Shown here: piece after piece, positions 8,188 to 54,925 of the stretch | Position numbering within the stretch: the first letter of the stretch is position 1 | How the letters are laid out: every line of letters begins with the position of its first letter | Assembly: GCA_964463705.1 (NCBI GenBank) | Contig: CAYXCH010000007.1 | Coordinates: 1 to 54,925, forward strand | Reading direction: 5' to 3' | Length of the DNA stretch: 54,925 bases | From: an uncultured Pseudobdellovibrionaceae bacterium | Lineage (GTDB): Bacteria > Patescibacteriota > Minisyncoccia > Moranbacterales > GCA-2747515 | Made by a program: the position numbers and the translations under genes | The notes under the pieces: model-generated | Databases searched by the model: none | The model's input: only the letters and a program-made list of their open reading frames with translations | Told to the model about the DNA's origin: nothing

Positions 8188-8190
8188 ATA

Positions 8191-15545: not shown

Positions 15546-16139
15546 ATGATTATTATCACACTCTCCGGAACGGATGGAAGCGGAAAAAGCACGCAGGCCC
15601 ATGCCGTGCGGGAATGGTTGACCGCCCGCGGAGAGCGCGTATGGATGTTCCACGCCGTTGAATTTTCCATTGCCAACCGCCTGTTACGTCAAACAGCGCC
15701 GAATCGATCCTCACGTAGCGTTACCCGTGCCGGCACTCTGCGAATCTTCTTACGGATCGTCGCTTTGCATATTGACTATATTCGCTTTGCATTTTTGCGA
15801 CGCCGACTGCGACGGCACGGATATACCGTAATACTGAGTGACCGATTTTTCTTTGATACGGTGGTAAACATTCGGTACTTACAACGCACAACGCGATGTG
15901 GCTACTTGGAGCGATGGGTTCCGCCCGTTGACTGTGCATTATATTTGGAAGTGGACGCCGAAACACTCCGCCACCGAGAACGTGTTCCCGAGCAAGGCGA
16001 GGAATACGCCCGAAAAAAATCCGCATTGTTTGCACAGCGACGTGACCGGTGGAATATGATTCTCATTGATGGCACGCAACCCATAGACACTGTCCGCAAT
16101 ACCATTATTCATACACTCACCCACCGCTGTTCACTATGA
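15546..16139 (+). CDS. Thymidylate-kinase-like NMP kinase
   Basis: LSGTDGSGKSTQA P-loop, ILSDRFFFD, DCALYLEV; substrate not certain. Confidence 0.75.
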   Translation: MIIITLSGTDGSGKSTQAHAVREWLTARGERVWMFHAVEFSIANRLLRQTAPNRSSRSVTRAGTLRIFLRIVALHIDYIRFAFLRRRLRRHGYTVILSDRFFFDTVVNIRYLQRTTRCGYLERWVPPVDCALYLEVDAETLRHRERVPEQGEEYARKKSALFAQRRDRWNMILIDGTQPIDTVRNTIIHTLTHRCSL

Positions 16140-17545
16140 AAACCGCTCGCGCCACAGTATTATTGGTAATTGCCGAAGGAGTGTTTACTCTCTCCGGATA
16201 CATTGTCAGTGCGGCATTGGGCCGTATACTGGGCGTGGCGGATTATGGACGCTATGCATTGGTTATCAGTTTAACAACATTGGTAACTGTCTTGGCGGGA
16301 CGTGCCATTCCCACGGCAATGGCACGTTATCTGGGGCGTTCCGTTGCCGCTCGTCGCAGTATTGTGCGCATGGCAGCAATACTGCAAGGCGGTTTTATTC
16401 TTTTTTTAACGACGGCGTTTTATTTCAGCGCCCCACTGATTGCGCGCGGACTTGGTGACGACTCCCTCCGTCCCTTACTGCATACGAGTGCGCTTATTAT
16501 TCCGGCCTTTGCCCTGTCATCATTTCATGTTTCTTATTTTAACGGATTAAAACATTTTGGCGCACAAGCAATACTGAAAATCAGTCGTGGAATATTTCGC
16601 GGTATATGGATTATTACATTGGGAGCACTGTTTGGCGTTGTCGGAGCAATCTCCGGTGCAATCATTGCTCCGCTCAGTGTCGCCGTCATCGCACAAATTA
16701 TTGACCGCGTTACCACTCCGCTTGCAAATAGCGGAACGGAGTCATTCCCCGCTCGCACACTATTACGATACGCTGCCTCCTTTGCCGTATTTACGGCAGT
16801 GTATGAACTTTATCTGCGAACAGATATTTACCTAATCAAAGCTATGATCGGACAAGACAGTGCCGTGGGACTATACAGTGCCGCCATGACCGTGGCGATG
16901 ATCCCGTACTACCTCAGTACGGCGGTGGCATTGATGCTGTTTCCCACCATTGCCACCGCCGACGCCAAACGACGCGGAAATGTACTTACACATGTGTTGC
17001 AACTCCTCGCAGTGATATTACCGGGAAGTGCATTACTTATGGCACTATATGCCACACCGCTACTAACACTATTGTTCGGATCATCATTTTCCGATGGTGC
17101 GCCGCTACTGGTGGCACTGCTTCCGGGAATGATATTTGGAACGCTGTTCTACGTACTGTCTGCGGCACTGAATGCCGCCGATGCTATGCGAGTAACCTCC
17201 ACACTCACTCTGTTGGGTATTGCCATTATTGTCACTGCCAATAGTTTGTTTTTGAAAGACGGAGGAACCATTGTGGCGGCAATCGCGTTCAGCGGAAGCG
17301 GAATATTTTTGGGAGTATGCGCACTGTTGGCGGTTCGTGTATTGTTCTCCGCTCAACTGCCATATTCCACTCTGGTCCGTTGTATTCCCGCCGCGCTTGC
17401 AACAGTAGCGACATCTCACGCCCTGGATACAATGGGCGTGCCACCACTGGTCGCACTTATCATCGCAACTGCAGTGTATGGATTAGGTTGCATGATTACC
17501 CGCGCGGTTCCACTCTCTTTGCTTCGTCTCCGTCATTCATCCTAA
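16136..17545 (+). CDS. Wzx/MOP-superfamily oligosaccharide flippase
   Basis: Many TM segments, YLRTDIYLIKAM, AVGLYSAA, LFPTI motifs. Confidence 0.85.
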   Translation: MKTARATVLLVIAEGVFTLSGYIVSAALGRILGVADYGRYALVISLTTLVTVLAGRAIPTAMARYLGRSVAARRSIVRMAAILQGGFILFLTTAFYFSAPLIARGLGDDSLRPLLHTSALIIPAFALSSFHVSYFNGLKHFGAQAILKISRGIFRGIWIITLGALFGVVGAISGAIIAPLSVAVIAQIIDRVTTPLANSGTESFPARTLLRYAASFAVFTAVYELYLRTDIYLIKAMIGQDSAVGLYSAAMTVAMIPYYLSTAVALMLFPTIATADAKRRGNVLTHVLQLLAVILPGSALLMALYATPLLTLLFGSSFSDGAPLLVALLPGMIFGTLFYVLSAALNAADAMRVTSTLTLLGIAIIVTANSLFLKDGGTIVAAIAFSGSGIFLGVCALLAVRVLFSAQLPYSTLVRCIPAALATVATSHALDTMGVPPLVALIIATAVYGLGCMITRAVPLSLLRLRHSS

Positions 17546-26965: not shown

Positions 26966-26994
26966 ATTGTATGGCACACCGTGAACAACGTCAA
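26966..26994 (-). promoter_or_regulatory. Sigma70-type promoter for khpA
   Basis: TTGACG-N17-TACAAT on the minus strand. Confidence 0.75.
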
Positions 26995-33050: not shown

Positions 33051-33824
33051 CTATTGTCGCCATAATAGGCGATAAATGCTTTGTAACACTCTATTGTAAA
33101 TTATAATTACCGGAAATACTACCACACTCCGTAGCATTTTGCCCAGGCGGTGAGGCTGGTGGATGGTGCGGTATATCCACTCCACGCCCCACCGACGCAT
33201 CCACCGCGGAGCACGAGGAACGGCACCGGTAAGAAAATCCACGGCACCGCCAACGCCCACCGCAACACCGGTTGCGCCCTGTGCTCGCAACGCCTCCAAA
33301 AAATACTCCTGTTGCGGTGCGCCGAAATTTGCAATATATATCGCCGGTGCCTTGTGAATGGAGGATGAAGAGTATGCCTCTATTCCTTCACACCGAACAT
33401 CTTCACCCGTTACCTGCAATTGCGGGTACCGCTCTCGCACTACCCGTTGAACCGTATGCCATTGTGACAATCCGTCCGCACGACAAAAAAAGTGTACCGA
33501 CCATCCTTCTTTCTCCGCTGCGTCCAATATATCAAAGAAAAGATCCGCGCCGGCATAGCGTTGCACGGGACGATGCATTAGCCGTGCCATTAACGCTACC
33601 CCCACCCCGTCGGCAATACACATATCCGCTTGTTTTAGTACGGCACGAAATTTCTCATTACTCCGCGCCAAAAGCAAAAATTCCGGATTGACCGTCGCAA
33701 TACGCAAAAATTCTCCTGTTTCTCGCATTGCCTCATCAATACGACATCTCGCCACATCCGGTGAGCACAAATCCGGCTGATAAAATACCGATGATAATTT
33801 TCCGAAACACCGACTCATATGCAA
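33051..33824 (-). CDS. WecG/TagA/CpsF-family glycosyltransferase (GT26)
   Basis: TVNPEF, ADGVG, GADL, FGAPQQE, GVGGAVDF, RAPRWM..GVEWIYR. Confidence 0.93.
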   Translation of the reverse strand: MHMSRCFGKLSSVFYQPDLCSPDVARCRIDEAMRETGEFLRIATVNPEFLLLARSNEKFRAVLKQADMCIADGVGVALMARLMHRPVQRYAGADLFFDILDAAEKEGWSVHFFCRADGLSQWHTVQRVVRERYPQLQVTGEDVRCEGIEAYSSSSIHKAPAIYIANFGAPQQEYFLEALRAQGATGVAVGVGGAVDFLTGAVPRAPRWMRRWGVEWIYRTIHQPHRLGKMLRSVVVFPVIIIYNRVLQSIYRLLWRQ

Positions 33825-35027
33825 TTATGATGATGCTCTATGATCTGCATCAACACTGCACGTCTCCATCACAGAATGTACCGTATGTTTCCATGCAAAT
33901 CGTTTACTCTGCGCAATTGCCCGTGAACGCAACGCCTCCCGCACCGCTTTATCGCAAACGACACGACGCAGCGCCTGATAAAGAGACGTCACATCGGACG
34001 GATCACAATACTCCACCGCGTCTCCACCAACTTCGGGAATGGAGGAAACGGTTCCCGCCACCACCGGTGTCCCAACACTGAGCGCTTCCAGCACCGGTAA
34101 GCCAAATCCTTCATATAGTGATGGATATACAAACACCATTGCTCCGGCATATAACGCCGGAAGATGTTCTTGCGGTACAAATCCTACCACTCGCACATGA
34201 TCCGATAAATCCATTTCTTGCACCAATCGCTCCACGTCGGTAATCAATGGAGCAAGATGCGGCATCAATGCACCGGAAATAACCAGTGGCGGCACCACGC
34301 ACGGTTTCTCTGTCCGTAACCGTGCATACGCACGCAACAGCGTTGTCACATTTTTGCGCACATCCAATCCTCCACCAAAATACAGATAATCGCCGTCTTG
34401 CACACCGTACAAATCCAAAATACGATGACGCTCCTCCGATGATGGTGGCGAGGATTTAAACATTGGATCACAATCAATATGCTGTACGGTAATCCGTGTA
34501 GACGGTACACCCAACAGACGCACGACATCATCCCGCGTATGATTGGAAATGGCGATCAGTGCATCTGCACGAACAATGGCACGCTCCGTCAAATACTGGT
34601 AGAATCGCTTGCGTACATTATTGAGATACTGTGGAAATATATGCGGCACAAGATCATGCACAACCATAACATGGTGCACGCCCTGTATGATGGTCGGACA
34701 CTGGTACAACGATAAGAACACATCACAGCCGTCCGCTCGCACCCGACGCGGCAATAATACACGCTCCCATAAAATTTTCCGTACCAAGTCATCTCGCGTA
34801 TACAACGGAGGAAGGAACGCTCGCACCGTACAGCGTTCCCGCACCGATGACGGCAGCGATTGCACCATGGCACGGATAGACTCTTCCTCCGCATAAAATA
34901 CAATCTGTATATCACCATACTTCCCCCGCTGCATGTCCTCCAAGAGTGTGCGCACAAAATGATACGTCACTTCCCCGATACCACTCCCTCGCTTCCGCAG
35001 AAACGATACATTAATACCAATCTTCAT
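33825..35027 (-). CDS. GT4 glycosyltransferase
   Basis: VHDLVP, IAISNHT, RKNV, PSLYEGFGLPVLEALSVGTPV. Confidence 0.93.
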   Translation of the reverse strand: MKIGINVSFLRKRGSGIGEVTYHFVRTLLEDMQRGKYGDIQIVFYAEEESIRAMVQSLPSSVRERCTVRAFLPPLYTRDDLVRKILWERVLLPRRVRADGCDVFLSLYQCPTIIQGVHHVMVVHDLVPHIFPQYLNNVRKRFYQYLTERAIVRADALIAISNHTRDDVVRLLGVPSTRITVQHIDCDPMFKSSPPSSEERHRILDLYGVQDGDYLYFGGGLDVRKNVTTLLRAYARLRTEKPCVVPPLVISGALMPHLAPLITDVERLVQEMDLSDHVRVVGFVPQEHLPALYAGAMVFVYPSLYEGFGLPVLEALSVGTPVVAGTVSSIPEVGGDAVEYCDPSDVTSLYQALRRVVCDKAVREALRSRAIAQSKRFAWKHTVHSVMETCSVDADHRASS

Positions 35028-35092
35028 AAAACACTCCTTCTTGTTACCCTTCTTTCATCCTACCATACCTACGTAGTGTGAAACCGCCGACA

Positions 35093-35314
35093 CTACCGAA
35101 CCTCATCTTCTCCATCAAGTAAAGCATATATTCCGCTCCGTTCATTGACACGAGCGTTCCGCACAAGATCATCCCGCCTAAGAAGTTGTGCATACTTTTG
35201 ATGTGAAGGTTTTTCTGACGCACCGATTACTTTTTCCGCGACAATAACAGACACTTTTGCGGGATCATTTTTTATACTATTATCAACGTTTATTTCGCTT
35301 TTTTTATGTATCAT
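35093..35314 (-). CDS. Possible 73-aa small protein
   Basis: Open frame MIHKKSEINVD...EDEVR in a 335-bp intergenic gap; no recognisable motif. Confidence 0.25.
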   Translation of the reverse strand: MIHKKSEINVDNSIKNDPAKVSVIVAEKVIGASEKPSHQKYAQLLRRDDLVRNARVNERSGIYALLDGEDEVR

Positions 35315-35362
35315 GTATAATGCATAAAAGTGCAATAATAAAAATCCTATAAATGTTTTGGT

Positions 35363-36676
35363 ATGACACAGGAGACACGTCACATCACAAAGGATAAAAC
35401 AATCGTAGTCGTTGGACTGGGATATGTCGGGCTGCCATTGGCGTTGCTGGCACGAGAAGCCGGCTATGATGTTATCGGGCTTGATGTGCGAAAAGAATGG
35501 GTGGATATGATCAACCAAGGAACCTGTCCTATCAATGATGATGAGAAGGTTACAGACAAATTTGAGCGCTTCCGCTTCCCCGCAACGATAGATCCTGCGG
35601 AAATCGCCAAAGGAGATATCATCTTGATTGCCGTACCAACACCGGTTGATGAGAATCAAAACCCCGTTTATGACTATGTCGTCGATGCATCAACAACCGT
35701 TGCGGAAAACATGAAAGCGGGAGCACTTGTTGTCCTGGAATCCACCGTCAATCCCGGTACCTGTGAAACCATCGTTCGTCCGATTTTTGAGCGTGCCGGA
35801 TTTACCATCGGAACAGACGTGGACATCGCCCACTGTCCGGAACGAATTGATCCCGGAAAGTCATCATTTAGCGCCGGGTATCATATTGGAAATACGGCAC
35901 GGGTGGTCGGTGCGTTTACTCCGGACGGAACAACGCGAGCGGCGGAATTTTATCGATCTATCATTGATGCGGAAATTCGGGAAATGAAGTCCATTCGCGA
36001 GGCGGAGGCGGTGAAAATTTTGGAAAACTCATTCCGAGATATCAATATTGCATTTATCAATGAAATTGCACAGAGCTTTGACCATCTCGGGATTGACGTA
36101 TTGGATGTTATTGAGGGCGCAAAAACAAAGCCGTATGCATTTATGGCACACTACCCCAGTTGCGGCGTTGGCGGTCACTGCATTCCCGTTGATCCGTATT
36201 ACTTGATTGAAAGCGCACAACGCAGCGGGTTTGATCACCAGTTTATGCGACAAGCGCGCAAGGTCAATAACTTTATGCCGGAGTATTCCGTAGAACGCAT
36301 GCAGGATGCTCTCAATGACATTAAACGCCCGATGAACGGTGAGACAATCGGACTCCTGGGACTGGCATATAAAGCCAATGTTGATGATATGCGTGAATCT
36401 CCTTCGTTCAAAATCATTAAACACCTACGCAAGCACGGAGCAAATGTCATCACCTATGACCCACACATTCTTCACAAATCGGACAGACAGACACTGGAAG
36501 ATGTACTGAACGATGTTGATCACGTCTTCATCGCCACAAACCACGATGAATTTGTGGATATGGATCTCTCATTACTAAAAAAGCACGATATCAAGATTGT
36601 ATTGGATGGAAAGAATTGTATGGATAAAGACGCCATTGAGGCCATGGGCATCATTTATCGCGGAATTGGTCGGTAG
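35363..36676 (+). CDS. UDP-N-acetylhexosamine 6-dehydrogenase (WecC/TviB family)
   Basis: VVGLGYVGLP, LESTVNPG, PERIDPG, KILENSFRDINIA, GVGGHCIPVDP, AYKANVDDMRESP. Confidence 0.92.
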   Translation: MTQETRHITKDKTIVVVGLGYVGLPLALLAREAGYDVIGLDVRKEWVDMINQGTCPINDDEKVTDKFERFRFPATIDPAEIAKGDIILIAVPTPVDENQNPVYDYVVDASTTVAENMKAGALVVLESTVNPGTCETIVRPIFERAGFTIGTDVDIAHCPERIDPGKSSFSAGYHIGNTARVVGAFTPDGTTRAAEFYRSIIDAEIREMKSIREAEAVKILENSFRDINIAFINEIAQSFDHLGIDVLDVIEGAKTKPYAFMAHYPSCGVGGHCIPVDPYYLIESAQRSGFDHQFMRQARKVNNFMPEYSVERMQDALNDIKRPMNGETIGLLGLAYKANVDDMRESPSFKIIKHLRKHGANVITYDPHILHKSDRQTLEDVLNDVDHVFIATNHDEFVDMDLSLLKKHDIKIVLDGKNCMDKDAIEAMGIIYRGIGR

Positions 36677-36689
36677 AAAAACCATCATT

Positions 36690-36722
36690 AAAAAGACTGC
36701 TCATACTGTGCAGTCTTTTTTT
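36690..36722 (+). terminator. Intrinsic terminator
   Basis: aaaagactgc-N9-gcagtc followed by a T-run. Confidence 0.8.
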
Positions 36723-36778
36723 GCCTAATTCCGTTTTTCCATTTAAAATAGAACTATAATTCTTTTGGATGATTCTTT

Positions 36779-37705
36779 ATGAAGCTGATTGTAAACATGC
36801 CGGGATACAATGAGGAGAAGCACATCGCAGAGACAATTCGGCGTGTACCGCGAACGATTGATGGAATTGATGAAGTATTGGTACAGGTAATTGACGATGG
36901 GTCGGTAGACCGCACCGTAGAAGAAGCACGAGCAGGCGGTGCGGATATTATTATTTCTCATGATGGTAATCGTGGACTCGGTGTAATGTTTCGCACGATG
37001 CGACAAAGCGCATTGGAACACGGAGCGGACATTATGGTAAATATTGATGCGGACGGACAGTTTGATCCACAGGATATTAAAAAACTTATCCGTCCAATTT
37101 TAGAGAAAACGGCAGATATTGTCATTGCGGACCGCTTCTCCAAGAGTACGGCAAAGAATATCCCCTTCCTCAAAGATAAGCTGAATCGTCTGGGTGCATG
37201 GCTTGTCGCCAAAGCCACCGGTGTTCCGGTTGTAGATCTTACCTGTGGATTTCGAGCACATAGCCGAGAGGCGATGTTGCGATTGAGTGATCCGGCGGGA
37301 TTTACCTATACACAAGAAACAATCATTGACGCGATCGGTAAAAATCTCAAACTTCAATGGGTTCCGGTTGTTGTACACTATCATGCTCAACGCAAGAGCC
37401 GTGTTGTCAAGACAATTTGGAATTATGTCAATAACAGTGCGCGAATTATCATTCGTGCGTTTCGCGATATCCAACCAATGAAGTTTTTTGCCATTCCGGG
37501 TATTTTGTTTATGATCGCATCCGCTGTGGGATTTTTCATTCTTCGTGGCGCCTATCCACTGACAACGGTGGCTTTCTTTCTCGTTGGTATGCAGTTCTTA
37601 ACATTCGGATTGATCGCCGATATGATGCGAGGAACACGAATGCAAAATGAGGAAGTTCTCTATCGCCTGCGCCGTAACGAATGGCGTGAAAATCACAAAC
37701 ACTAA
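36779..37705 (+). CDS. GT2 glycosyltransferase (DPM1-like, polyprenol-phosphate glycosyltransferase type)
   Basis: PGYNEE, IDDGSVD, DADGQ, DLTCGFRA, two C-terminal TMs. Confidence 0.88.
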   Translation: MKLIVNMPGYNEEKHIAETIRRVPRTIDGIDEVLVQVIDDGSVDRTVEEARAGGADIIISHDGNRGLGVMFRTMRQSALEHGADIMVNIDADGQFDPQDIKKLIRPILEKTADIVIADRFSKSTAKNIPFLKDKLNRLGAWLVAKATGVPVVDLTCGFRAHSREAMLRLSDPAGFTYTQETIIDAIGKNLKLQWVPVVVHYHAQRKSRVVKTIWNYVNNSARIIIRAFRDIQPMKFFAIPGILFMIASAVGFFILRGAYPLTTVAFFLVGMQFLTFGLIADMMRGTRMQNEEVLYRLRRNEWRENHKH

Positions 37706-37709
37706 CCCT

Positions 37710-38813
37710 ATGCCTACATCTGATACTCCGCGCATTCTCTTTCTCTCTCGCGCCTACCCGCCGGTTACCGGTGGTATTGAGAATCAAAATTATGAAATCT
37801 CCCGCGCTCTCGCCCGGCGTGTTCCATGCACGGTTATCGCAAACAAGCATGGAAAACGCGCGCTCCCTCTCTTTCTTCCCTATGCGTTAATCGTAACTCT
37901 GTGGAACATGCGTACGCATGATGTGTTATTGCTGGGCGATGGCGTATTGGGAATTATCGGCGGGTTTGTAAAAATCTTCTACGGCAACCGCAAGAAAGTC
38001 TTATGTATTGTTCACGGACTTGATTTGACATTCAACAACAATATCTATCAAAATTTCTGGGTCAAACAATTTATTCCCGATGCCGATCGCCTTATTGCCG
38101 TCGGTAATCAAACAATTAAAGAAGGTGTGACTCGCGGAATTCCGGAAGAAAAATTTGTTTTTGTTCCCAATGGTGTTGATGTGAAAAAATTTGCCCTCGG
38201 AACACCGGATCGCAAAGCACTGTCTGTACTACTGAAAAAAGATCTTAGCGATGATACTCGTGTTCTTTTTACCGGCGGACGGTTGGTAAAACGCAAGGGT
38301 GTGGCATGGTTTATCCGGACCATTCTACCCACTCTACCGGACAATATTATTTATGCTGTTGCCGGAGACGGCCCCGATCGCACAAATATTGAGGCGGCGA
38401 TTCGGGAAAATGGTATGCAAGACCGTGTTGTGCTATTAGGATATGTCAGTGATGACGATCGCCGGACACTCCTCCACAGTTGCGACCTCTTTATTCAGCC
38501 AAATATTCCGGTAGAGGGTGATATGGAAGGATTCGGGTTGGTGGTGCTGGAAGCCGGTAGCAGCGGCATTGTTGTCGTAGCTTCACGATTGGAAGGATTG
38601 AAGGATGCGATTCATGATGGTAAAAACGGAATTCTTGTTCCTCCGGAAGATGCTGATGCGTGGAAGGAAACCGTTATAACACTTCTGAGTGATGACGATA
38701 AACGGACGGCGATGGGACGTGCGGCACACGAATATATTACAAAACACTTTACATGGGACGCCATCGCCGCTCGCTATGTAGAAGTGATTGAACAAACACC
38801 GGCACGACGGTAA
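37710..38813 (+). CDS. GT4 glycosyltransferase
   Basis: YPPVTGGIE, GRLVKRKG, EGFGLVVLEA; start moved to MPTSDTPRILF. Confidence 0.92.
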   Translation: MPTSDTPRILFLSRAYPPVTGGIENQNYEISRALARRVPCTVIANKHGKRALPLFLPYALIVTLWNMRTHDVLLLGDGVLGIIGGFVKIFYGNRKKVLCIVHGLDLTFNNNIYQNFWVKQFIPDADRLIAVGNQTIKEGVTRGIPEEKFVFVPNGVDVKKFALGTPDRKALSVLLKKDLSDDTRVLFTGGRLVKRKGVAWFIRTILPTLPDNIIYAVAGDGPDRTNIEAAIRENGMQDRVVLLGYVSDDDRRTLLHSCDLFIQPNIPVEGDMEGFGLVVLEAGSSGIVVVASRLEGLKDAIHDGKNGILVPPEDADAWKETVITLLSDDDKRTAMGRAAHEYITKHFTWDAIAARYVEVIEQTPARR

Positions 38814-38841
38814 AAACCTTTATTACAACACATTTTTCGTA

Positions 38842-38871
38842 TTGACGCACGTTGTGCTTTAGCGGTACAAT
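38842..38871 (+). promoter_or_regulatory. Sigma70-type promoter
   Basis: TTGACG-N18-TACAAT. Confidence 0.7.
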
Positions 38872-38885
38872 ACACTATGGCGCTT

Positions 38886-38996
38886 TGTGAAAAGTGCCAT
38901 CCCGTTGGTGCTTCGGCACCATCTATGAATGGGCCCGTTCGTTCACAGTAAAAGAGATAAAGACCTCATCGATGTATGTGGATTTCCATGTACATC
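38886..38996 (+). ncRNA. Candidate structured 5' leader RNA
   Basis: TGTGAA/TTCACA closing stem, GGTGC-TTCG-GCACC tetraloop hairpin, GAATGGG/CCCGTTC and an 11-bp hairpin at 38971-38996. Confidence 0.4.
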
Positions 38997-39011
38997 ATGA
39001 GTCATGAAGCT

Positions 39012-39734
39012 ATGACCGAAGAATATCGCGACGATATTGAGGAGATGGAAGAGGATGATGATCGTACCTTCGGCGAGTGGCTGCAAGACAATTTGCGCGT
39101 GATTATCAGCGTGATTATTGTGTTGCTGCTGGCGCTGGGCATCTACTCCTACTCCAAGCGTTCGCAGGAGGCGCGCATGGTTGCCGACACCTCCGGCGCA
39201 AACACCGCTACGGAAACATCTGCACAAGATGATGGTGGCGTGATGGCGCAAATTGGTGATGCCGTAACGGGTGGAGCAAAGAAAGCGGCGGATACCGCTG
39301 CTGCTGCCGCCGGTGCGGCTAAAGATGCGGCAACAGGTGCTGTAGAAACTGCGAAGAACAGCATGAAGAAGGATGATGCACCGCAAGTTATGGCACAAGA
39401 TGACGCACGCAACACAACGGCTGCACGCGACACCTTAACGGGTGATGCATACACCTTGGTGGCGCGAGCCGGGGATGGTAAAACACATCTGGCGCGACGC
39501 GCACTATCCGGATATCTGGCACAACACCCGGTAGACGGATTGACCGCAGCACATAAGGTCTACATTGAAGACTACCTGCAAAAGGCAGTTGGAGGACCGA
39601 CGATGCTACGGATTGGACAAGAGGTACGCTTCTCAACGGACTTGATTAAACAAGCCATTGAGCGAGCGCAACGCCTCAATGACATGCAGCTGCGCAACTT
39701 GCAGAAGTATGCGGCCGCCGCTTCTCTCTCCTAG
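39012..39734 (+). CDS. Membrane-anchored hypothetical protein
   Basis: Acidic N-terminus, one TM, Ala/Thr-rich linker, C-terminal globular domain; flanked by a promoter and a terminator. Confidence 0.85.
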   Translation: MTEEYRDDIEEMEEDDDRTFGEWLQDNLRVIISVIIVLLLALGIYSYSKRSQEARMVADTSGANTATETSAQDDGGVMAQIGDAVTGGAKKAADTAAAAAGAAKDAATGAVETAKNSMKKDDAPQVMAQDDARNTTAARDTLTGDAYTLVARAGDGKTHLARRALSGYLAQHPVDGLTAAHKVYIEDYLQKAVGGPTMLRIGQEVRFSTDLIKQAIERAQRLNDMQLRNLQKYAAAASLS

Positions 39735-39786
39735 ACGTCTGTGACGAACACTTACAGGGAAAACGCAACAGCTTCATGTCCTTTAC

Positions 39787-39816
39787 AAAAAACACCGCCA
39801 GCGTGCGGTGTTTTTT
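39787..39816. terminator. Bidirectional intrinsic terminator
   Basis: aaaaaacaccgc-cagcgt-gcggtgtttttt. Confidence 0.9.
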
Positions 39817-39818
39817 AT

Positions 39819-40307
39819 TTATGGACGATTGGCGGGAACAACACTAATGCGTGTACCGAGTGTTGCACCGTACGAGCGTATTGCGCCGTGCGGCAATTCA
39901 AGAACATACCGTGCCGGCAACCGTGGTCGCAAGATTGTGGAATCAAACGGAACTCCACTGCGAATATCTACAATTTCCCACCGTGCGTTAATCCATACGA
40001 TATCCAATGGAATAGATGTTTTATTCATCCAAAACGCATGACGGGCGCTGGACGGAAATACGAATAACATTCCGCATTGTTTACATAGTTGTGAATGATG
40101 TTGTAGTCCGCGACGACGGGTTTCCTCTCTTGCCGCCACTGTCGCTACAACAACGGCATCGTTAATACTTATACGCACCGTATCGCCATCGGCATACTCC
40201 TCAATACCATCTATATCATCTATCGCCCCCGGCAGCGGACTTAACAGACCGATACAGAGTACTACCGTGAAGAAGATTTTACCGTAGGTTGTGTATGTTC
40301 CACCCAT
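39819..40307 (-). CDS. DUF192-family protein
   Basis: RRRGL, GMLFVF, FWMNKTSIPLDIVWI, YVLELP. Confidence 0.92.
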   Translation of the reverse strand: MGGTYTTYGKIFFTVVLCIGLLSPLPGAIDDIDGIEEYADGDTVRISINDAVVVATVAAREETRRRGLQHHSQLCKQCGMLFVFPSSARHAFWMNKTSIPLDIVWINARWEIVDIRSGVPFDSTILRPRLPARYVLELPHGAIRSYGATLGTRISVVPANRP

Positions 40308-41293
40308 AAAAGTAAACCGATCATGATGATTGCAACAGTGACAACCACTGTTGCTTTAACGGTAACTGTTGCATGAACCGAGCCAAACGCCACTGCCCCA
40401 ATCAGTCCCGCATACAGTAACGCAATATGTCGTGAAGACCATCCGCGATCCGCTAAACGATAATGTAAATGTCGTCGATCCGGCGCAAACGGTGAGACAC
40501 CGGCACGAAGACGGGAAAAGATTACCCATACCGCATCCACTAACGGAACAATCATTACCAATAGCGTTGTCGCGATTTTCGCACCGGCGATAATCGCCAA
40601 TGACGCCACCACCACTCCCCAGAAAAATGCTCCCGTTGTCCCCGCAATGATGCGAGATGGCGCCCAGTTCCATACAAGAAATCCGCCGGTTGCACCCATG
40701 AGTGCCGCGGCGGCAATCGCCACCGGCGGCTGATGAACATGAGGCAACAGTGCGGTGGCAAAGATTGTTCCTCCCGCTACCAGCGCCACCATTCCGCCCA
40801 GTCCGTCCACACCATCCAACCAATTCATCACATTCATAATCCCGACAACCCACAGAATCGTAAGAACAAAACTTGTCAATGAAAACACGGTATCGGGTGA
40901 AAATACAATCATTGCATCGCGAAATGGATGAGATACCGCCGTAATCCGAATCTCACCGATAAACAATAACATTGCAATCCATACATGTGCAGCTAACTGC
41001 GTCCGCCAGGTTACGACACGATAATCATCCCACAATCCGACAAGCACGACTCCGCCCAATGCAATCAACAATATCACCCACCGAGTGTCCGGAACAAAAT
41101 TCGGATGCACCAAAAGAGCAATAACAAATGCCGCCACCATCGCCACACCGCCCAGTCGCACCGGATGAGATACCGGACGACGTGCCTCCACTCGGCGAGA
41201 AGGCAAATATCGCGCCACACCGACCAGTGCGGCGCATCCAATCACCGCTATGCCCCACGCCGTTAAAAATGCTGTTACATACATCATGAGCAT
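40262..41293 (-). CDS. WecA/TagO-type undecaprenyl-phosphate GlcNAc-1-P transferase (MraY superfamily)
   Basis: RLGGVA, GLWDD, NVMNWLDGVDGL, FLVWN, PLVD, DRRHLHYRL. Confidence 0.9.
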   Translation of the reverse strand: MLMMYVTAFLTAWGIAVIGCAALVGVARYLPSRRVEARRPVSHPVRLGGVAMVAAFVIALLVHPNFVPDTRWVILLIALGGVVLVGLWDDYRVVTWRTQLAAHVWIAMLLFIGEIRITAVSHPFRDAMIVFSPDTVFSLTSFVLTILWVVGIMNVMNWLDGVDGLGGMVALVAGGTIFATALLPHVHQPPVAIAAAALMGATGGFLVWNWAPSRIIAGTTGAFFWGVVVASLAIIAGAKIATTLLVMIVPLVDAVWVIFSRLRAGVSPFAPDRRHLHYRLADRGWSSRHIALLYAGLIGAVAFGSVHATVTVKATVVVTVAIIMIGLLLWVEHTQPTVKSSSR

Positions 41294-50085: not shown

Positions 50086-50892
50086 TTATTGACAGGTCTC
50101 CTTCATCCGTTGCCGGAAGGCTTCAATATACTCTTCAACAGATACCCCCTCCTTCCGTGCAACCGACGTAATAATATTAATCAAGTACGCACACGTTTCT
50201 TTGTACGTGATAATTTCACGCAACGCGTCTTCCAGCTGACGTGTCGCCGCTTGCATTGCCGCAATCTCATCCCGAAGACGCTCTCGCTGAATAAACGGAT
50301 TTTCATCTCCTTTTAGTTTTTTATCTACCGCCCATACATCTACAATGGTATACACCACGTCTTTCATTGCCTCGGACACTTTGGAAAAATCTCCCGTCTC
50401 CTCAGCATGAGAAATGATAGTAGAGAGTTGTTCTTGTGCATGTTTAATCTTTGACACCGATATATCTAAAACTCTTCGTGCACGATAAGTATACAGTCCG
50501 TACTCTTCACTCGGTGTCCTTCCATGCTTTTCTAAATACTTTTTGGACTCTTCTATCATTGACTGCAATGCTGTAGACATCCTATCGGAAAGTATCTGTG
50601 CGGCGGGGTCCATAGAATAATCAATTGGAACATGCGCTGATGGACGAGATTTTCCCTCACTGTCCGTTTCCCATGTAACATGGACAGTGGGCGAACGTTG
50701 CTCTATCGTCGCACTTGATGCCTCCACCGTCCGATCCGGAAATGATGTAATTGTCGGTGGCGATGGTGTGGCATCAATATCGGTACTTAACGCCGCAAGT
50801 ATAGCGGTAATTGCGGCACTCTTCGCCGATGGAGGATTTTCAGGATTATTGCCATGGCCACCGGCATCCGATGGTGAAAATGGTTCTTTCAT
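50086..50892 (-). CDS. Hypothetical protein (disordered N-terminus, helical C-terminus)
   Basis: 268-aa ORF with its own extended -10 (TGATAGAAT 50920-28) and a GAGGAG upstream. Confidence 0.75.
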   Translation of the reverse strand: MKEPFSPSDAGGHGNNPENPPSAKSAAITAILAALSTDIDATPSPPTITSFPDRTVEASSATIEQRSPTVHVTWETDSEGKSRPSAHVPIDYSMDPAAQILSDRMSTALQSMIEESKKYLEKHGRTPSEEYGLYTYRARRVLDISVSKIKHAQEQLSTIISHAEETGDFSKVSEAMKDVVYTIVDVWAVDKKLKGDENPFIQRERLRDEIAAMQAATRQLEDALREIITYKETCAYLINIITSVARKEGVSVEEYIEAFRQRMKETCQ

Positions 50893-50976: not shown

Positions 50977-52005
50977 ATGCAAACAACTATTCTCATCACC
51001 GGCGGTGCCGGCTACATCGGATCTCATACCGCGGTTGCACTGCAAGAACACGGCTACACTCCCCTCATCTTGGATAATTTCAGCAATACGCACCGTGATG
51101 TTCCGGATGGAATTCGCGCCATTACCGGAACACCCGTCCGCTGTATTGAAGGAGATTGTCGCGATACAAAACTTCTGGAACATCTCTTTGCTCATGAGCG
51201 GATTGGCGGCGTCATTCACTTTGCGGCGTTAAAAGCCGTGGGTGAATCTGTTCATCGCCCACTAGACTACTATGAGAACAATTTAATGTCGCTCCTTGCG
51301 CTCTTGCGTGTTGCTACCGCACATGCCACAGCACACAATACCACCCTGCCCGTCATTTTTTCCTCCAGTGCCACCGTCTATGGCGATGCGGACACCATGC
51401 CCGTTACCGAGGATACGCCGCGCCGACCCGCCACCAACCCCTATGGAAATACCAAAGCGATTGCGGAAGATATTTTGCGCGACACTGTCACTGCTGATGC
51501 GCCTCTCTGTGCGATTGCACTTCGCTACTTCAACCCCATCGGTGCTCATCCCTCCGGTCATATCGGCGAACGCCCCACCGGTACACCGGCAAATCTCGTC
51601 CCCTACCTCACGCAAGCCGCCGCCGGGCTTCGTTCCACACTTACCATCCATGGTAACGATTACGACACTCCGGACGGCACCGGCATCCGTGATTACATTC
51701 ACGTCATGGACCTGGCAACGGCCCACGTCGCCGCCCTCCGCCATGCCGAGCGGACGACCGCACCGCAGTATGATGTCTTCAATATCGGCACCGGACGCGG
51801 AACCAGTGTTAACGAACTCATCACCACTTTCCATAATGTCACCGGCGTCTCTGTTCCCCACACCGTTGGACCGCGCCGCCCCGGTGATGTCGCCACTTGC
51901 TACGCCGATGTCACCAAGGCTCATCGCATTCTCCAATGGCGCGCTCAATACACGATTGCCGATGCTCTCCGTGATGCCTGGAACTTCCAACAGCGCCAAC
52001 GATAA
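50977..52005 (+). CDS. galE: UDP-glucose 4-epimerase
   Basis: TGGAGYIGSH, HFAALKAVGES, FSSSATVYG, YGNTK, LRYFNPIGAH, RDYIHVMDLA. Confidence 0.97.
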   Translation: MQTTILITGGAGYIGSHTAVALQEHGYTPLILDNFSNTHRDVPDGIRAITGTPVRCIEGDCRDTKLLEHLFAHERIGGVIHFAALKAVGESVHRPLDYYENNLMSLLALLRVATAHATAHNTTLPVIFSSSATVYGDADTMPVTEDTPRRPATNPYGNTKAIAEDILRDTVTADAPLCAIALRYFNPIGAHPSGHIGERPTGTPANLVPYLTQAAAGLRSTLTIHGNDYDTPDGTGIRDYIHVMDLATAHVAALRHAERTTAPQYDVFNIGTGRGTSVNELITTFHNVTGVSVPHTVGPRRPGDVATCYADVTKAHRILQWRAQYTIADALRDAWNFQQRQR

Positions 52006-52123: not shown

Positions 52124-53416
52124 TTAAAGAAAATAATCATCTTTTGCAATAAATACGGTATAGGTCAGCATACAGAGAGCCAATGCATACGCAATCTGCA
52201 TCCACAGCACCCGACGCGGGATGCGCATCCACAGTAAATACAAAACAATCGGCACAATTGCGTATCGCGGTTCAATCAACCAGTGCAATGACAGTGCCAA
52301 AAGCGCAAATGGCAGAAAAACCAGCGCATCTACCGGACGACGCCATCGCGCACCGATAAGAGCGGCAATTCCGACAACAATCACACCGTAAGATATGATC
52401 TTCGCCCACTGGTGCGTTGCAATCGCAATGAGGATGTCGTTATGTAGAAAGCGATCATTTACCACCCAATTATACGCATGGTCAATAACGAATGTGTGAC
52501 TATAGAAAACATAACCGCCACAAAGTGCACCCACTATAAGTATGCAGCGCGTCCATGAGCATGACATTGTGCGCACTAAACGTAGGAGATGATATCCCAC
52601 AATGGGCAACATCGTAACAACAAAGACAATTAGAGCAAAATAGATATTCCCCCAGTGCAATGAACCTGACGGGTGTGCATGCCGATCAGACACGGCGACA
52701 CCGCCATTGATGACAACAAAGGCAATAAACGCCCCGGCAAGGAGATAATACGGTATATAGCGCACCGAAAGAACGTACTTCACGACACGCCGCACATCCC
52801 TCCATATCGGCATCCGCAATCGTGTTCCATACGTCGCGCGAATACCATCAATTGCCACCACCGCCGCAATGTACAAAATCATATCCTGTCGTATCAAAAG
52901 AGATAAAAGAAACGCTATTGCGGCATATCCATGACGTTTACGAAGAAGCAATCCATAGCCAAGCAAAAAGAATGCCAACGCGGGAATGTCCGTGTAAACA
53001 AGAAAAGTGAATAAAAAAATCACCGGCATACTTGCAAGAACGATAAACACCTCCCGCCGGTGGGCAAGCAGATGCACAACACCGGAGAGAACTATGACAA
53101 AAAGTGATCCAAAAATCGTTGCGCTAAGATAACGATTATATCGGTGCTTTAAACGAAATTCATCATTAAACCATAGCGCTCCACGAGCAATGGTTCCCAA
53201 TGCAATATGATAACCGGGAATATTCGTGAGATTTTCAAGATCCGCTCTTGTCTGCAATTGCTGTGCAAACACCTTCTTAATGATACGACTGTGTACTTTC
53301 TCATCCCGCCGATGCCCGGATTCCGTCATAAGCAAAAAGATGGCAATGCACTGTACGATAAGGAGCATACCAAGAACAACTCGATGACGCTGTATAAAAT
53401 GACGTACCGCTTGCAT
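52124..53416 (-). CDS. ALG10/DIE2-like GT-C integral membrane glycosyltransferase
   Basis: DEKVH, LTNIPGY, FLVYTD, IRQ, FVVINGGVAVSDRHAH, H..N.YF, IEPRY, in the same order as ALG10 motifs. Confidence 0.75.
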   Translation of the reverse strand: MQAVRHFIQRHRVVLGMLLIVQCIAIFLLMTESGHRRDEKVHSRIIKKVFAQQLQTRADLENLTNIPGYHIALGTIARGALWFNDEFRLKHRYNRYLSATIFGSLFVIVLSGVVHLLAHRREVFIVLASMPVIFLFTFLVYTDIPALAFFLLGYGLLLRKRHGYAAIAFLLSLLIRQDMILYIAAVVAIDGIRATYGTRLRMPIWRDVRRVVKYVLSVRYIPYYLLAGAFIAFVVINGGVAVSDRHAHPSGSLHWGNIYFALIVFVVTMLPIVGYHLLRLVRTMSCSWTRCILIVGALCGGYVFYSHTFVIDHAYNWVVNDRFLHNDILIAIATHQWAKIISYGVIVVGIAALIGARWRRPVDALVFLPFALLALSLHWLIEPRYAIVPIVLYLLWMRIPRRVLWMQIAYALALCMLTYTVFIAKDDYFL

Positions 53417-53419: not shown

Positions 53420-54925
53420 CTATAATGGTATTTCCATACCAAAGATATTACGAGCACGAGGCGTCGGAAGTTGTTCATACCGATTTCGCAACTCAGCATC
53501 GTCCATTGCGCGCACATCATCCGGCGAAATATTTAAAAGCTGTGCAATTTTCTCCACCGCAACCCATAGCGTTACACGATCTTTTGTAAAGATGACACGA
53601 TACCGTCCGCTCTCCTCCACAGAATCACGATACGATAATTTCCGCGTCTCCAATGCCGGACGTTTTTCTTTCCTCTTCTCTGCATATTTACTACGTTTGA
53701 GTAAAACATAGTCTGTAAATTGACGATTATCCGGAAGAAAAAATTCTGCGCGTCGATTAACGTGGGGACCGATTGATGCATCCGCTGTAACACTCCCGCC
53801 ATCCTTAATCCAAACAATCGCCGCATCCAATGCCGTACGATGAATACTTGTTTTAAAATCCATGCGATCTATAAAATGCGGAATTCCGATTATAACAATC
53901 CACGCACTTACTACGCCCAGAAGAAATGGCGACCGAATCCCCCATTCTCGCACAGATGCTTGTACCCACTGCGGCAAACGTAAACGGCGCGCCCACCGCG
54001 CATCCAGTGCGCGTCCCGTATCGCTCCGAAACCGATCCACCAGCTCCACAAAAATCATGATCAGAATCGGTGGAATCAATACAAAAACATGAGATCCTCC
54101 ACTAATTCGTCCATAGATGATGATAAACAACACAATTGCCAGCGATGGCGCAAGCAGCAGAGCATACCGTGACAACAACGGCAACACCACGCCTAACGGT
54201 AGCAACCATTCATAGACACGCTTTACGCGCTTGGTAAATTTCGGCACGTCCAGAGCCAATGCATCGTGAAAGCGTTCTCGCAGATACTCCGCAGAACCAA
54301 AACCAACCGTAATGAACACCTTTGCCACCAATTGCAACAACGCCCCGGCCACCATTGGCGGAAGTATCCACCGCCAAGAACGCCGGTGCCATAATGCCAA
54401 CACACCGACAAGGAAAAGTGTCGGCGCAACAAACTCACTGACAAGCGCAAGCGCACAACACAGTACAACAAACCGCCCGTACCACCGTTCCCGATACGCC
54501 ATCAATAGCCATAAAAACAACGGACCGCCAATCGCCACCACATGCATCGGACCAATCACCTGTTTAAGAACCAACGGATGCAATAACCATAGCAGCAAGG
54601 CAATCCACGCCGCAACGACACCGATACGCGCATAGACATACCGCCATATCGTCCACGCTGCAAATGCAAAGAACACCTGAATGACCGCAAACAGTGTCAA
54701 TGTATGCGGAACAACAGCATAAAACGGCACATACAAAAACTGTACAATGTTGAGATGTTCTCGCAGATTAAACTCATTGCCGATGAGGAAGCTTTGATGA
54801 AAGAGTCGTCCCGTAAAAATCGTATTCCAAATCGCTTGCTCCGCTACCGCCGTATCTCCCGTACCAAACACATAGCCGTCATATTTTTCATGCGTCGCCC
54901 ACATCCACGCCATCATCACGCCGAT
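53420..54925 (-). CDS. DUF2079-like (GT-C-type) membrane protein, possibly 5'-truncated by the window
   Basis: GDTAVAEQAIWN, H....FLYVPFY..P..TL..IQ, many TMs. Confidence 0.7.
   Translation of the reverse strand: MGVMMAWMWATHEKYDGYVFGTGDTAVAEQAIWNTIFTGRLFHQSFLIGNEFNLREHLNIVQFLYVPFYAVVPHTLTLFAVIQVFFAFAAWTIWRYVYARIGVVAAWIALLLWLLHPLVLKQVIGPMHVVAIGGPLFLWLLMAYRERWYGRFVVLCCALALVSEFVAPTLFLVGVLALWHRRSWRWILPPMVAGALLQLVAKVFITVGFGSAEYLRERFHDALALDVPKFTKRVKRVYEWLLPLGVVLPLLSRYALLLAPSLAIVLFIIIYGRISGGSHVFVLIPPILIMIFVELVDRFRSDTGRALDARWARRLRLPQWVQASVREWGIRSPFLLGVVSAWIVIIGIPHFIDRMDFKTSIHRTALDAAIVWIKDGGSVTADASIGPHVNRRAEFFLPDNRQFTDYVLLKRSKYAEKRKEKRPALETRKLSYRDSVEESGRYRVIFTKDRVTLWVAVEKIAQLLNISPDDVRAMDDAELRNRYEQLPTPRARNIFGMEIPL

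What the first reader, a model, noticed from the sequence alone, without database searches (positions are those of the whole stretch)
52124..53416. Bacterial homolog of the eukaryotic ER glucosyltransferase ALG10/DIE2
Motifs match human/yeast ALG10 in order: DEKVH (DEIFH), LTNIPGY (ITTLPGLY), FLVYTD (FLYYT[DE]), IRQ (RQTN), FVVINGGVAVSDRHAH (FVVVNGGIVIGDRSSH), LIEPRY (LLEFRY). ALG10 is known mainly from eukaryotic N-glycan assembly using Dol-P-Glc. A CPR-like bacterial version implies extracytoplasmic glucosylation from a polyprenol-P-sugar, and is relevant to the origin or transfer of this family.
Basis: partly seen in the sequence, partly recalled or inferred. Interest (0 to 1): 0.7.

Follow-up and report, generated by a model that had tools for sequence, protein, structure and literature searches.

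The report
Bacterial ALG10-like membrane glycosyltransferase
This gene encodes a genuine bacterial relative of ALG10, the enzyme that adds the last glucose to the eukaryotic N-glycan precursor; it belongs to a large, uncharacterised prokaryotic branch of a family that the literature treats as eukaryote-only.

Summary
Window 52124-53416 (-) is a 430-aa ORF that hits Pfam DIE2_ALG10 (76.7 bits, cut-off 27) and no other GT-C family. D38, E39, R95, R176, Q177, N237, R384 and Y385 are near-invariant in 159 prokaryotic and 16 eukaryotic sequences. A confident AF2 model (pLDDT 90.7) has 13 TM helices with all conserved motifs on the outer face; its best PDB matches are GT-C enzymes. It is not rare: an exhaustive search finds 3,901 representative clusters, and IMG already auto-labels them "alpha-1,2-glucosyltransferase". 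Relatives occur in CPR (Moraniibacteriota, the closest), Proteobacteria, Myxococcota, Gemmatimonadota and Bacteroidota. Animals plus plants form a separate clan (200/200 bootstraps), so this is not a recent eukaryotic transfer. The gene lies 3 nt downstream of a DUF2079 membrane protein and next to GalE, a trio conserved in the nearest MAGs. The most likely function is extracytoplasmic hexose transfer from a polyprenyl-phosphate sugar to an envelope glycan. The sugar and acceptor are unknown.

The parts
52124..53416 (-). ALG10/DIE2-like GT-C membrane glycosyltransferase (430 aa, 13 predicted TM helices, N-terminus in, C-terminus out). Candidate catalytic D38-E39 lie in the first outer loop.
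   Evidence: ORF; Pfam PF04922 76.7 bits; hhalign against vertebrate ALG10 99.9%, E 2.9e-33; AF2 pLDDT 90.7, pTM 0.92; Foldseek top hits are all GT-C; topology; residue conservation.
53420..54925 (-). DUF2079 polytopic membrane protein, immediately upstream on the same strand. Its TAG stop lies 3 nt before the ALG10-like ATG, so the two are probably co-transcribed. The gene's 5' end, about 25-33 codons including TM1, lies beyond the window end.
   Evidence: Pfam PF09852 78.8 bits; junction sequence; orthologue alignment shows the missing N-terminus and a conserved TGDTAVAEQAIWN motif; adjacency is conserved in L002, L022, L027, L028, L029 and L031.
50977..52005 (+). UDP-glucose 4-epimerase GalE, convergent with the ALG10-like gene across a 118-nt spacer. 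Likely supplies or interconverts the UDP-Glc/UDP-Gal that feeds the lipid-linked donor.
   Evidence: NCBIfam TIGR01179 galE 388 bits, cut-off 262; a GalE-type neighbour is conserved in L001, L002, L022, L027 and L028.
36779..37705 (+). Candidate donor synthase: a GT2 enzyme of the polyprenyl-phosphate-sugar synthase type (GT-A domain plus two C-terminal TM helices). It is about 15 kb away, so the link is inferred.
   Evidence: Pfam Glycos_transf_2. Best NCBIfam matches, all below the equivalog cut-offs, are AglJ (106.8 bits, full length), PpgS, Dol-P-hexose transferase and ArnC. TM helices at 234-261 and 260-283.
16136..17545 (+). Wzx/MOP-type polysaccharide flippase. A possible translocase for lipid-linked sugars; the link is weak.
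   Evidence: Pfam Polysacc_synt and Polysacc_synt_3. No GtrA-like small ORF was found in the window.
33051..41293 (.). Scattered envelope-glycopolymer genes that could build the acceptor: TagA/WecG-type GT26 (33051-33824 -), GT4 (33825-35027 -), UDP-ManNAc/UDP-Glc dehydrogenase family (35363-36676 +), GT4 (37647-38813 +) and a WecA/TagO-like phosphotransferase (40262-41293 -).
   Evidence: Pfam and NCBIfam scans. The association with the ALG10-like gene is inferred from function only.

Best explanation
The gene encodes an active GT-C-fold integral membrane glycosyltransferase. It belongs to a prokaryotic sister branch of the DIE2/ALG10 family (CAZy GT59: inverting, lipid-phosphate-monosaccharide donor). 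Homology, fold class, topology and the conserved residue set are shown here. The mechanism is inferred. A membrane-anchored GT2 (candidate: 36779-37705) loads a hexose from a UDP-sugar onto polyprenyl phosphate at the cytoplasmic face, with GalE setting the UDP-Glc/UDP-Gal balance. The lipid-linked sugar is flipped outward. [quoted passage not shown] It probably acts in concert with, or sequentially to, the co-transcribed DUF2079 membrane protein. [quoted passage not shown]
For: Family assignment rests on the Pfam hit, the end-to-end profile alignment to authentic ALG10, and the absence of any other GT-C family hit. Residues D38, E39, R95, R176, Q177, N237, H313, R384 and Y385 are conserved in at least 150 of 159 prokaryotic and 16 of 16 eukaryotic sequences, which argues for a retained active site. 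The AF2 model has pLDDT 90.7, and its best PDB matches are ALG12, ALG6, ArnT, Pmt4, ALG9 and EmbC. The protein has 13 TM helices, obeys the positive-inside rule, and carries every conserved motif on an outer loop. This matches the published 13-TMD 1-8-4 ALG10 model (PMC6801728). GT59 is listed as inverting with a lipid-P-monosaccharide donor (PMC10920833). The DUF2079-ALG10-like-GalE arrangement is conserved, with a 3-nt gap to DUF2079. The window holds a GtrB/ArnC-type GT2 with two C-terminal TM helices. Neighbours across 20 loci are enriched for other GT-C genes (PMT_2, DUF2079) and sugar epimerases. The framework is described in PMC8035078.
Against: No biochemical data exist for any prokaryotic member. 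The candidate donor synthase and flippase are 15-36 kb away, not clustered with the gene, and no GtrA-type flippase is seen. Outside CPR the genomic context is heterogeneous and often housekeeping: GlnD/DapD, ribosomal protein L17, GGDEF. Structural matches to solved GT-C enzymes are weak (E 0.07-0.6, TM 0.34-0.42). The GT-C nature of DUF2079 could not be tested. The ALG10-like protein diverges faster than its neighbours (43-47% against 64-68% identity), so specificity may differ even among close relatives.
Confidence: 0.6

Rival explanations
1. It is a protein glycosyltransferase. The enzyme would use the same lipid-linked donor chemistry but glycosylate secreted or surface proteins (S-layer, pili, lipoproteins), functionally like PMT rather than ALG10.
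For: In CPR loci the gene sits among arrays of PMT_2-type GT-C paralogues. GT-C families repeatedly switch between lipid-linked glycan and protein acceptors (PMC6801728). No acceptor-pathway gene is tightly linked to it.
Against: Every characterised member of the DIE2/ALG10 family acts on a lipid-linked oligosaccharide. The protein has no large soluble outer domain of the kind PMTs use (MIR). The model is almost entirely transmembrane, and its largest loop is about 59 aa.
Confidence: 0.2
2. It is a true functional ALG10 equivalent: it caps a lipid-linked oligosaccharide with alpha-1,2-glucose ahead of en-bloc transfer by an oligosaccharyltransferase, in a bacterial N-glycosylation pathway.
For: The active-site residue set is shared with eukaryotic ALG10. 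IMG's automatic annotation names these proteins alpha-1,2-glucosyltransferase.
Against: The 55-kb window holds no STT3/PglB, ALG6/ALG8 (GT57) or other lumenal ALG homologue. The prokaryotic sequences form a separate clan from the eukaryotic ones. They carry their own signature residues (Y69, N257, N316, N326) where eukaryotes have L, Q, L and R/K, and they lack the eukaryotic loop insert and C-terminal tail. The automatic name is a transfer by homology only.
Confidence: 0.07
3. It is eukaryotic contamination, or a recent horizontal transfer from a eukaryote into this genome.
For: The family was defined on eukaryotic sequences, and the literature calls it eukaryote-specific (PMC4973528).
Against: The gene is embedded in an ordinary bacterial chromosome segment: mraZ-mraW-PBP-mur, mreBC, aminoacyl-tRNA synthetases and RF1. 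It lies 3 nt from a bacterial DUF2079 gene, and that synteny is conserved in several MAGs. Animals plus plants form a clan in 200 of 200 bootstraps, excluding all 63 prokaryotic sequences, and identity to eukaryotes is only about 20%. There are 3,901 representative clusters, including complete genomes of cultured bacteria.
Confidence: 0.01
4. It is a catalytically dead scaffold or a lipid-linked-sugar-binding or transport protein that merely keeps the ALG10 fold.
For: No activity has been measured. It is paired with a second polytopic protein that could be the real enzyme.
Against: The acidic EL1 dyad and the other motif residues are near-invariant across 159 divergent prokaryotic representatives with a mean pairwise identity of about 30%. 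That is the pattern expected of a maintained active site.
Confidence: 0.04

Closest known systems
Eukaryotic ALG10/DIE2 (Dol-P-Glc:Glc2Man9GlcNAc2-PP-Dol alpha-1,2-glucosyltransferase; Pfam PF04922; CAZy GT59)
   Same: Same Pfam family. The two are colinear over essentially the whole length (hhalign E 2.9e-33). They share the invariant residues D38/E39, R95, P131, Y141, R176, F230, N237 and R384/Y385. Both have the predicted 13-TM, N-in topology with the motifs in outer loops.
   Different: Identity is only about 20%, and the Pfam score is 77 bits against 435-449 for animal and plant ALG10. The bacterial protein is shorter (430 against about 470-510 aa): it lacks the insert in the long loop between the RQ and NGG motifs, the LLADNRHY segment and the C-terminal QWP...QRF[MI]W tail. 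It has prokaryote-specific residues Y69, N257, N316 and N326. It branches outside the animal-plant clan. It sits in a bacterial operon with DUF2079, and its natural acceptor cannot be Glc2Man9GlcNAc2-PP-Dol.
Bacterial multi-component (three-component) transmembrane glycosylation systems, e.g. GtrA/GtrB/Gtr(type), CsbB/GtcA/YfhO, GtlA/GtcA/GtlB, GacI/GacK/GacL
   Same: The proposed working logic is the same: a membrane-anchored GT-A enzyme makes a C55-P-sugar, a flippase moves it outward, and a polytopic GT-C enzyme transfers the sugar to an envelope polymer outside the membrane (PMC8035078). The window has a GtrB/ArnC-type GT2 and a Wzx-type flippase.
   Different: There is no sequence relationship to YfhO-, GtrX- or GacL-type GT-Cs (no such Pfam hits). 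The three components are not clustered, and no GtrA-type flippase is present. This resemblance is in how it would work, not in family membership.
Other GT-C families with solved structures (ALG6 GT57, ALG9/ALG12 GT22, ArnT GT83, PMT GT39, EmbC GT53)
   Same: These are the best structural matches to the AF2 model, consistent with a shared GT-C fold and an acidic residue in the first outer loop.
   Different: The similarity is weak (TM 0.34-0.42, E 0.07-0.6, 11-13% identity), and there are no sequence-profile hits. No GT59 structure is present in the PDB copy searched.

Membership tests
DIE2/ALG10 family (Pfam PF04922, CAZy GT59) | Whole-protein score above the curated Pfam gathering threshold, with near-full-length coverage | tested here: met
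   76.7 bits against a cut-off of 27; protein residues 82-394 on profile positions 49-390 of 391. Nine other prokaryotic members score 70-123 bits.
DIE2/ALG10 family (Pfam PF04922, CAZy GT59) | Colinear homology to experimentally anchored eukaryotic ALG10 over the whole protein | tested here: met
   hhalign of the bacterial profile against the vertebrate ALG10 profile: 99.9% probability, E 2.9e-33, 374 columns, query 26-408 on template 19-460.
DIE2/ALG10 family (Pfam PF04922, CAZy GT59) | Conserved acidic motif (D-E..H) in the first extracytoplasmic loop, plus the YT[DE], RQ, NGG..D..H and E.RY loop motifs | tested here: met
   D38, E39, Y141, R176, N237, R384 and Y385 are invariant in the joint alignment, and they are kept in at least 150 of 159 prokaryotic and 16 of 16 eukaryotic sequences.
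DIE2/ALG10 family (Pfam PF04922, CAZy GT59) | 13-TMD (1-8-4) topology with cytoplasmic N-terminus and the motifs in EL1, EL2, EL3 and EL6 | tested here: met
   AF2 helices, hydropathy and the positive-inside rule give 13 TM helices, N-in and C-out, with the motifs on outer loops. The reference model is PMC6801728. This is a prediction only.
DIE2/ALG10 family (Pfam PF04922, CAZy GT59) | GT-C fold | tested here: met
   The top Foldseek PDB hits are ALG12, ALG6, ArnT, Pmt4, ALG9 and EmbC, with probabilities of 0.5-1.0 but weak TM scores of 0.28-0.42.
DIE2/ALG10 family (Pfam PF04922, CAZy GT59) | Orthology: branching inside the eukaryotic ALG10 clade | tested here: not met
   Vertebrate plus plant ALG10 form a clan in 200 of 200 NJ bootstraps, excluding all 63 prokaryotic sequences. 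The window protein belongs to a separate prokaryotic branch, so it is a family member but not an orthologue.
DIE2/ALG10 family (Pfam PF04922, CAZy GT59) | Activity: alpha-1,2-glucosyl transfer from Dol-P-Glc to Glc2Man9GlcNAc2-PP-Dol | not testable with these tools
   This needs yeast alg10 complementation or an in vitro assay. No ALG6/ALG8 or OST homologue is present in the 55-kb window.
Multi-component transmembrane glycosylation system (GT-A C55-P-sugar synthase + flippase + GT-C) | Polytopic GT-C transferase with outward-facing catalytic loops | tested here: met
Multi-component transmembrane glycosylation system (GT-A C55-P-sugar synthase + flippase + GT-C) | Membrane-anchored GT-A polyprenyl-P-sugar synthase and a GtrA- or Wzx-type flippase genetically linked to the GT-C | tested here: inconclusive
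   A GtrB/ArnC/AglJ-like GT2 with two C-terminal TM helices lies at 36779-37705, and a Wzx-type gene lies at 16136-17545. They are 15-36 kb away. No GtrA-like ORF was found, and only 2 of 80 neighbours across 20 loci are GT2.
PMT / PMT_2 / ArnT (GT39, GT83) families | Significant match to the PMT, PMT_2 or ArnT-type profiles | tested here: not met
   No such family is reported at E<=1 for the window protein or nine relatives.

The most novel reading that the evidence does not exclude
The widespread, deeply diverged prokaryotic ALG10-like branch is the stock from which eukaryotic ALG10 (GT59) was acquired. That would mean at least one of the 'eukaryote-specific' lumenal N-glycan glycosyltransferases has a direct bacterial ancestor, rather than arising by duplication of a PMT-like enzyme inside the eukaryotic stem. 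The supporting observations are these. The branch spans CPR, Proteobacteria, Myxococcota, Gemmatimonadota and Bacteroidota. Mean identity within it is about 30%, lower than the 34% between animals and plants. A related possibility is that the bacterial enzymes glucosylate lipid-linked glycans in an as yet undescribed envelope pathway together with DUF2079.
Probability: 0.35. Interest if true: 0.7.

Novelty: new variant of a known kind. Interest (0 to 1): 0.5.

Why it matters
The principal evolutionary analysis of N-glycosylation (Lombard 2016, PMC4973528) states that Alg3/9/12/6/8/10 appear unique to eukaryotes, that BLASTP finds no prokaryotic homologues, and that the lumenal enzymes probably arose from a PMT-like ancestor. 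Here one of those enzymes has a specific, full-length, active-site-conserving prokaryotic sister family with thousands of members, some in cultivable and genetically tractable bacteria. This makes the origin of ALG10 directly testable by rooted phylogeny. It offers small bacterial orthologues as targets for the first GT59 structure, since the PDB copy searched contains none. It also points to an unstudied envelope-glycosylation module (DUF2079 + ALG10-like + GalE) in CPR bacteria, whose surfaces mediate their episymbiotic lifestyle. The interest is tempered: the family is already visible in Pfam- and IMG-style automatic annotation, this gene is one ordinary member of it, and no function has been shown.

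Tried and rejected
PDB sequence searches with the protein and with the family profile returned only noise, so no GT59 structure is available for comparison.

NCBIfam has no model for the protein.

Rfam found nothing in the window.

The exact-sequence contig look-ups for the window protein and for the Dyella homologue returned nothing.

tblastn against the plasmid and phage collections found no match, so there is no sign of a mobile or serotype-converting origin.

The promoter and terminator scan around the locus was at background level and uninformative.

The test of whether DUF2079 is GT-C-like failed in three ways. hhalign against the ALG10-like profile gave 0.4% probability. The PDB profile search found nothing.

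The first genome scan with the 20-sequence alignment failed for lack of a conserved stretch. I repeated it with 8 closer sequences, so the phyletic list is biased towards close relatives and says nothing about archaea.

The supplement of PMC6801728 did not contain the eukaryotic alignments I had hoped to use.

Literature searches for PF04922, DIE2_ALG10, GT59 with bacteria, DUF2079, and Patescibacteria with GT-C found no description of prokaryotic members.

I considered and rejected eukaryotic contamination, a generic PMT/ArnT assignment, and a pseudoenzyme; the reasons are given under the rival explanations.
Full report
**The observation**

Window 52124-53416 holds a 430-aa ORF on the minus strand, with an ATG start and the stop included in the coordinates.

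Pfam PF04922 (DIE2_ALG10) matches at E 2.8e-21 and 76.7 bits against a gathering score of 27, covering profile positions 49-390 of 391. No other family is reported even at E<=1. NCBIfam has no model for the protein, and the PDB has no sequence relative.

**Direct comparison with real ALG10**

The eukaryotic motifs in the finding were recalled from memory, so I retrieved authentic records. I used recalled human-like and Arabidopsis-like sequences only as bait. The searches returned database proteins named dol-P-Glc:Glc(2)Man(9)GlcNAc(2)-PP-Dol alpha-1,2-glucosyltransferase from vertebrates and plants.

- BLASTP of the window protein against a bat ALG10 gives 28% identity over 149 aa, E 4e-7.
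- A profile of 20 prokaryotic relatives against a profile of 11 vertebrate ALG10 gives hhalign probability 99.9%, E 2.9e-33, over 374 columns, essentially end to end.
- In that alignment and in a joint MAFFT alignment, the motifs pair as follows: RDEKVH with MDEIFH, LTNIPGY with ITTLPGLY, FLVYTD with FLYYT[DE], IRQD with FRQTN, FVVINGGVAVSDRHAH with FVVVNGGIVVGDRSSH, and LIEPRY with LLEFRY.
- Across 159 prokaryotic representatives and 16 eukaryotes, D38, E39, R95, R176, Q177, N237, H313, R384 and Y385 are kept in at least 150 of 159 and 16 of 16 sequences.
- Prokaryotes carry their own signature (Y69, N257, N316, N326) where eukaryotes have L, Q, L and R/K.
- Prokaryotes lack the eukaryotic loop insert between the RQ and NGG motifs and the C-terminal QWP...QRF[MI]W tail.
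- Pfam scores put this in proportion: 449 and 435 bits for bat and Arabidopsis ALG10, 70-123 bits for prokaryotic members, and 76.7 bits for the window protein.

**Structure and topology**

AlphaFold2 on the joint alignment gives a confident model, with pLDDT 90.7 and pTM 0.92. Its best matches among solved structures are all GT-C enzymes: ALG12, ALG6, ArnT, Pmt4, ALG9 and EmbC. The matches are weak, with TM 0.28-0.42 and E 0.07-0.6. So the model has the GT-C fold, and no close solved relative exists.

The model's helices, hydropathy and the positive-inside rule give 13 TM helices with the N-terminus in and the C-terminus out. The DE/IPGY, YTD, RQ, NGG..D..H, H.YN and E.RY motifs all lie on outer loops. 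This is the 13-TMD '1-8-4' topology proposed for ALG10 (PMC6801728). GT59 is catalogued as inverting with a lipid-P-monosaccharide donor (PMC10920833).

**How common the family is**

The word-indexed search found 21 relatives, all carrying PF04922, including one from a complete Dyella genome. The exhaustive profile search of 1.84 billion representatives found 3,901 clusters at E<=1e-3 and 1,057 at E<=1e-30. The best 150 are nearly all about 380-460 aa. A few are longer fusions (547-747 aa) with the ALG10-like domain at the C-terminus.

A pattern-limited scan of GTDB species genomes found 26 loci. The closest are Candidatus Moraniibacteriota MAGs at 44-47% identity. The rest are Rhodanobacter, Motilimonas, Jeongeupia, Dokdonella, Luteimonas, Teredinibacter, Corallococcus/Myxococcaceae, Gemmatimonadetes, Flavobacteriaceae and Peribacteraceae. 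IMG already auto-names members 'alpha-1,2-glucosyltransferase'. The gene is therefore one member of a large, catalogued but uncharacterised prokaryotic family.

**Relation to eukaryotes**

On a 404-column trimmed alignment of 63 prokaryotic, 8 vertebrate and 8 plant sequences, the mean identities are as follows:

| Comparison | Mean identity |
|---|---|
| Prokaryote-prokaryote | 0.30 |
| Prokaryote-vertebrate | 0.20 |
| Prokaryote-plant | 0.22 |
| Vertebrate-plant | 0.34 |

In neighbour-joining trees with Poisson distances, vertebrates plus plants form a clan in 200 of 200 bootstraps, and the midpoint root falls between eukaryotes and prokaryotes. The window protein groups with P0002-P0004 in 200 of 200 replicates.

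This excludes contamination and recent transfer from animals or plants. It does not give the direction of any ancient transfer. There are four caveats: the method is a distance method, no fungi or protists were sampled, there is no outgroup, and the prokaryotic sample came from a prokaryote-built profile.

**Genomic context**

The window is an ordinary bacterial chromosome segment. It carries lepA, tsaD, a mur ligase, two PBPs, mraW, mraZ, greA, mreC, mreB, several aminoacyl-tRNA synthetases, ligA and prfA.

The ALG10-like ATG lies 3 nt after the TAG stop of a DUF2079 gene on the same strand, and the gene is convergent with galE (TIGR01179, 388 bits). The DUF2079-ALG10-like adjacency recurs in L002, L022, L027, L028, L029 and L031. 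A GalE-type epimerase recurs in L001, L002, L022, L027 and L028.

The window's GalE and DUF2079 are 64-68% identical to the MAG orthologues, whereas the ALG10-like protein is only 43-47% identical. This supports a Moraniibacteriota-like origin for the window. It also shows that the ALG10-like protein evolves faster than its partners.

Across 20 loci, the commonest families among 80 flanking ORFs are PMT_2 (7), SDR epimerases (4), hexapeptide transferases (3), DUF2079 (2) and GT2 (2). In Proteobacteria the context is heterogeneous and often housekeeping.

Elsewhere in the window there are several further glycan genes:

- a GT2 whose best matches are polyprenyl-P-sugar synthases (AglJ, PpgS, Dol-P-hexose transferase, ArnC), with two C-terminal TM helices;
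- a Wzx-type flippase;
- a WecA/TagO-like phosphotransferase;
- a TagA-like GT26;
- a UDP-ManNAc dehydrogenase-like enzyme;
- two GT4 enzymes.

**Mechanism**

Homology, fold class, predicted topology and active-site conservation are shown. The rest is inferred. [quoted passage not shown] This follows the logic of multi-component transmembrane glycosylation systems (PMC8035078). GalE suggests glucose or galactose as the sugar. The acceptor is unknown and cannot be the eukaryotic Glc2Man9GlcNAc2-PP-Dol.

The rivals, with my estimates, are a protein acceptor (0.2), a true ALG10 equivalent in a bacterial N-glycosylation pathway (0.07), a pseudoenzyme (0.04), and contamination or recent transfer (0.01).

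**Novelty**

Lombard 2016 states that the lumenal GTs, including Alg10, appear unique to eukaryotes and that BLASTP finds no prokaryotic homologues (PMC4973528). My literature searches found no description of prokaryotic GT59 members or of DUF2079.

The family-level point is therefore of real but moderate interest: a specific, widespread prokaryotic sister branch of ALG10 that includes cultivable hosts. This particular gene is an ordinary member of that branch. I rate it as a new variant of a known kind, with interest 0.5.

Noticed in passing
window 53420-54925 (-): The DUF2079 ORF listed as starting at a GTG at 54919 lacks the roughly 25-33 N-terminal residues, including TM1, that all its orthologues have, so the gene runs off the window end. 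It also carries an insertion of about 27 aa (SDTGRALDARWARRLRLPQWVQASVREWGI) that is absent from six orthologues.
   Followed up: partly
window 52124-53416 compared with 50977-52005 and 53420-54919: The ALG10-like protein is only 43-47% identical to its orthologues in the nearest MAGs, while the flanking GalE and DUF2079 are 64-68% identical. The glycosyltransferase evolves much faster than its partners, as would be expected if its acceptor specificity is diversifying.
   Followed up: partly
L002 8001-9307: In the Moraniibacteriota MAG JALVQA010000009 the ALG10-like gene is split into two reading frames, with HSPs at 8001-8834 and 8915-9307. This is either a frameshifted pseudogene or an assembly error.
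   Followed up: no
P0012 (717 aa, L032 2700-4853), P0058 (659 aa), P0061 (747 aa), P0097, P0151: Some family members are fusions that carry an extra N-terminal polytopic region of about 140-340 residues ahead of the ALG10-like domain. In L032 a UbiA prenyltransferase gene lies nearby.
   Followed up: no
L006, L007, L012, L026, L031: In other CPR genomes the ALG10-like gene sits beside tandem arrays of three to five paralogous membrane proteins of about 540-620 aa. At least some of these are PMT_2-type GT-C enzymes. This suggests large batteries of extracytoplasmic glycosyltransferases in these small genomes.
   Followed up: partly
L018 5491-11516 (Teredinibacter waterburyi): Here the ALG10-like gene is flanked by a GH94 glycan phosphorylase-family gene and a DUF2298 polytopic membrane protein. 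This context differs from the CPR one.
   Followed up: no
window 50086-50892 (-), 38976-39734 (+), 26991-28169 (-): Three sizeable ORFs have no family assignment. One is a 268-aa protein between prfA and galE. One is a 252-aa protein inside the glycan gene region. The third is a 392-aa protein with only a TAT signal hit.
   Followed up: no
window 1-54925: GC skew is negative in almost every 2-kb bin (the exception is 36-40 kb) and most genes are on the minus strand, so the window lies within a single replichore. GC content of about 45-54% is high for a CPR genome.
   Followed up: no
window 3227-12566 (-): The window carries mraZ-mraW-PBP-mur ligase and mreB-mreC-PBP2 clusters, so the organism has both division/cell-wall and rod-shape machinery.
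   Followed up: no
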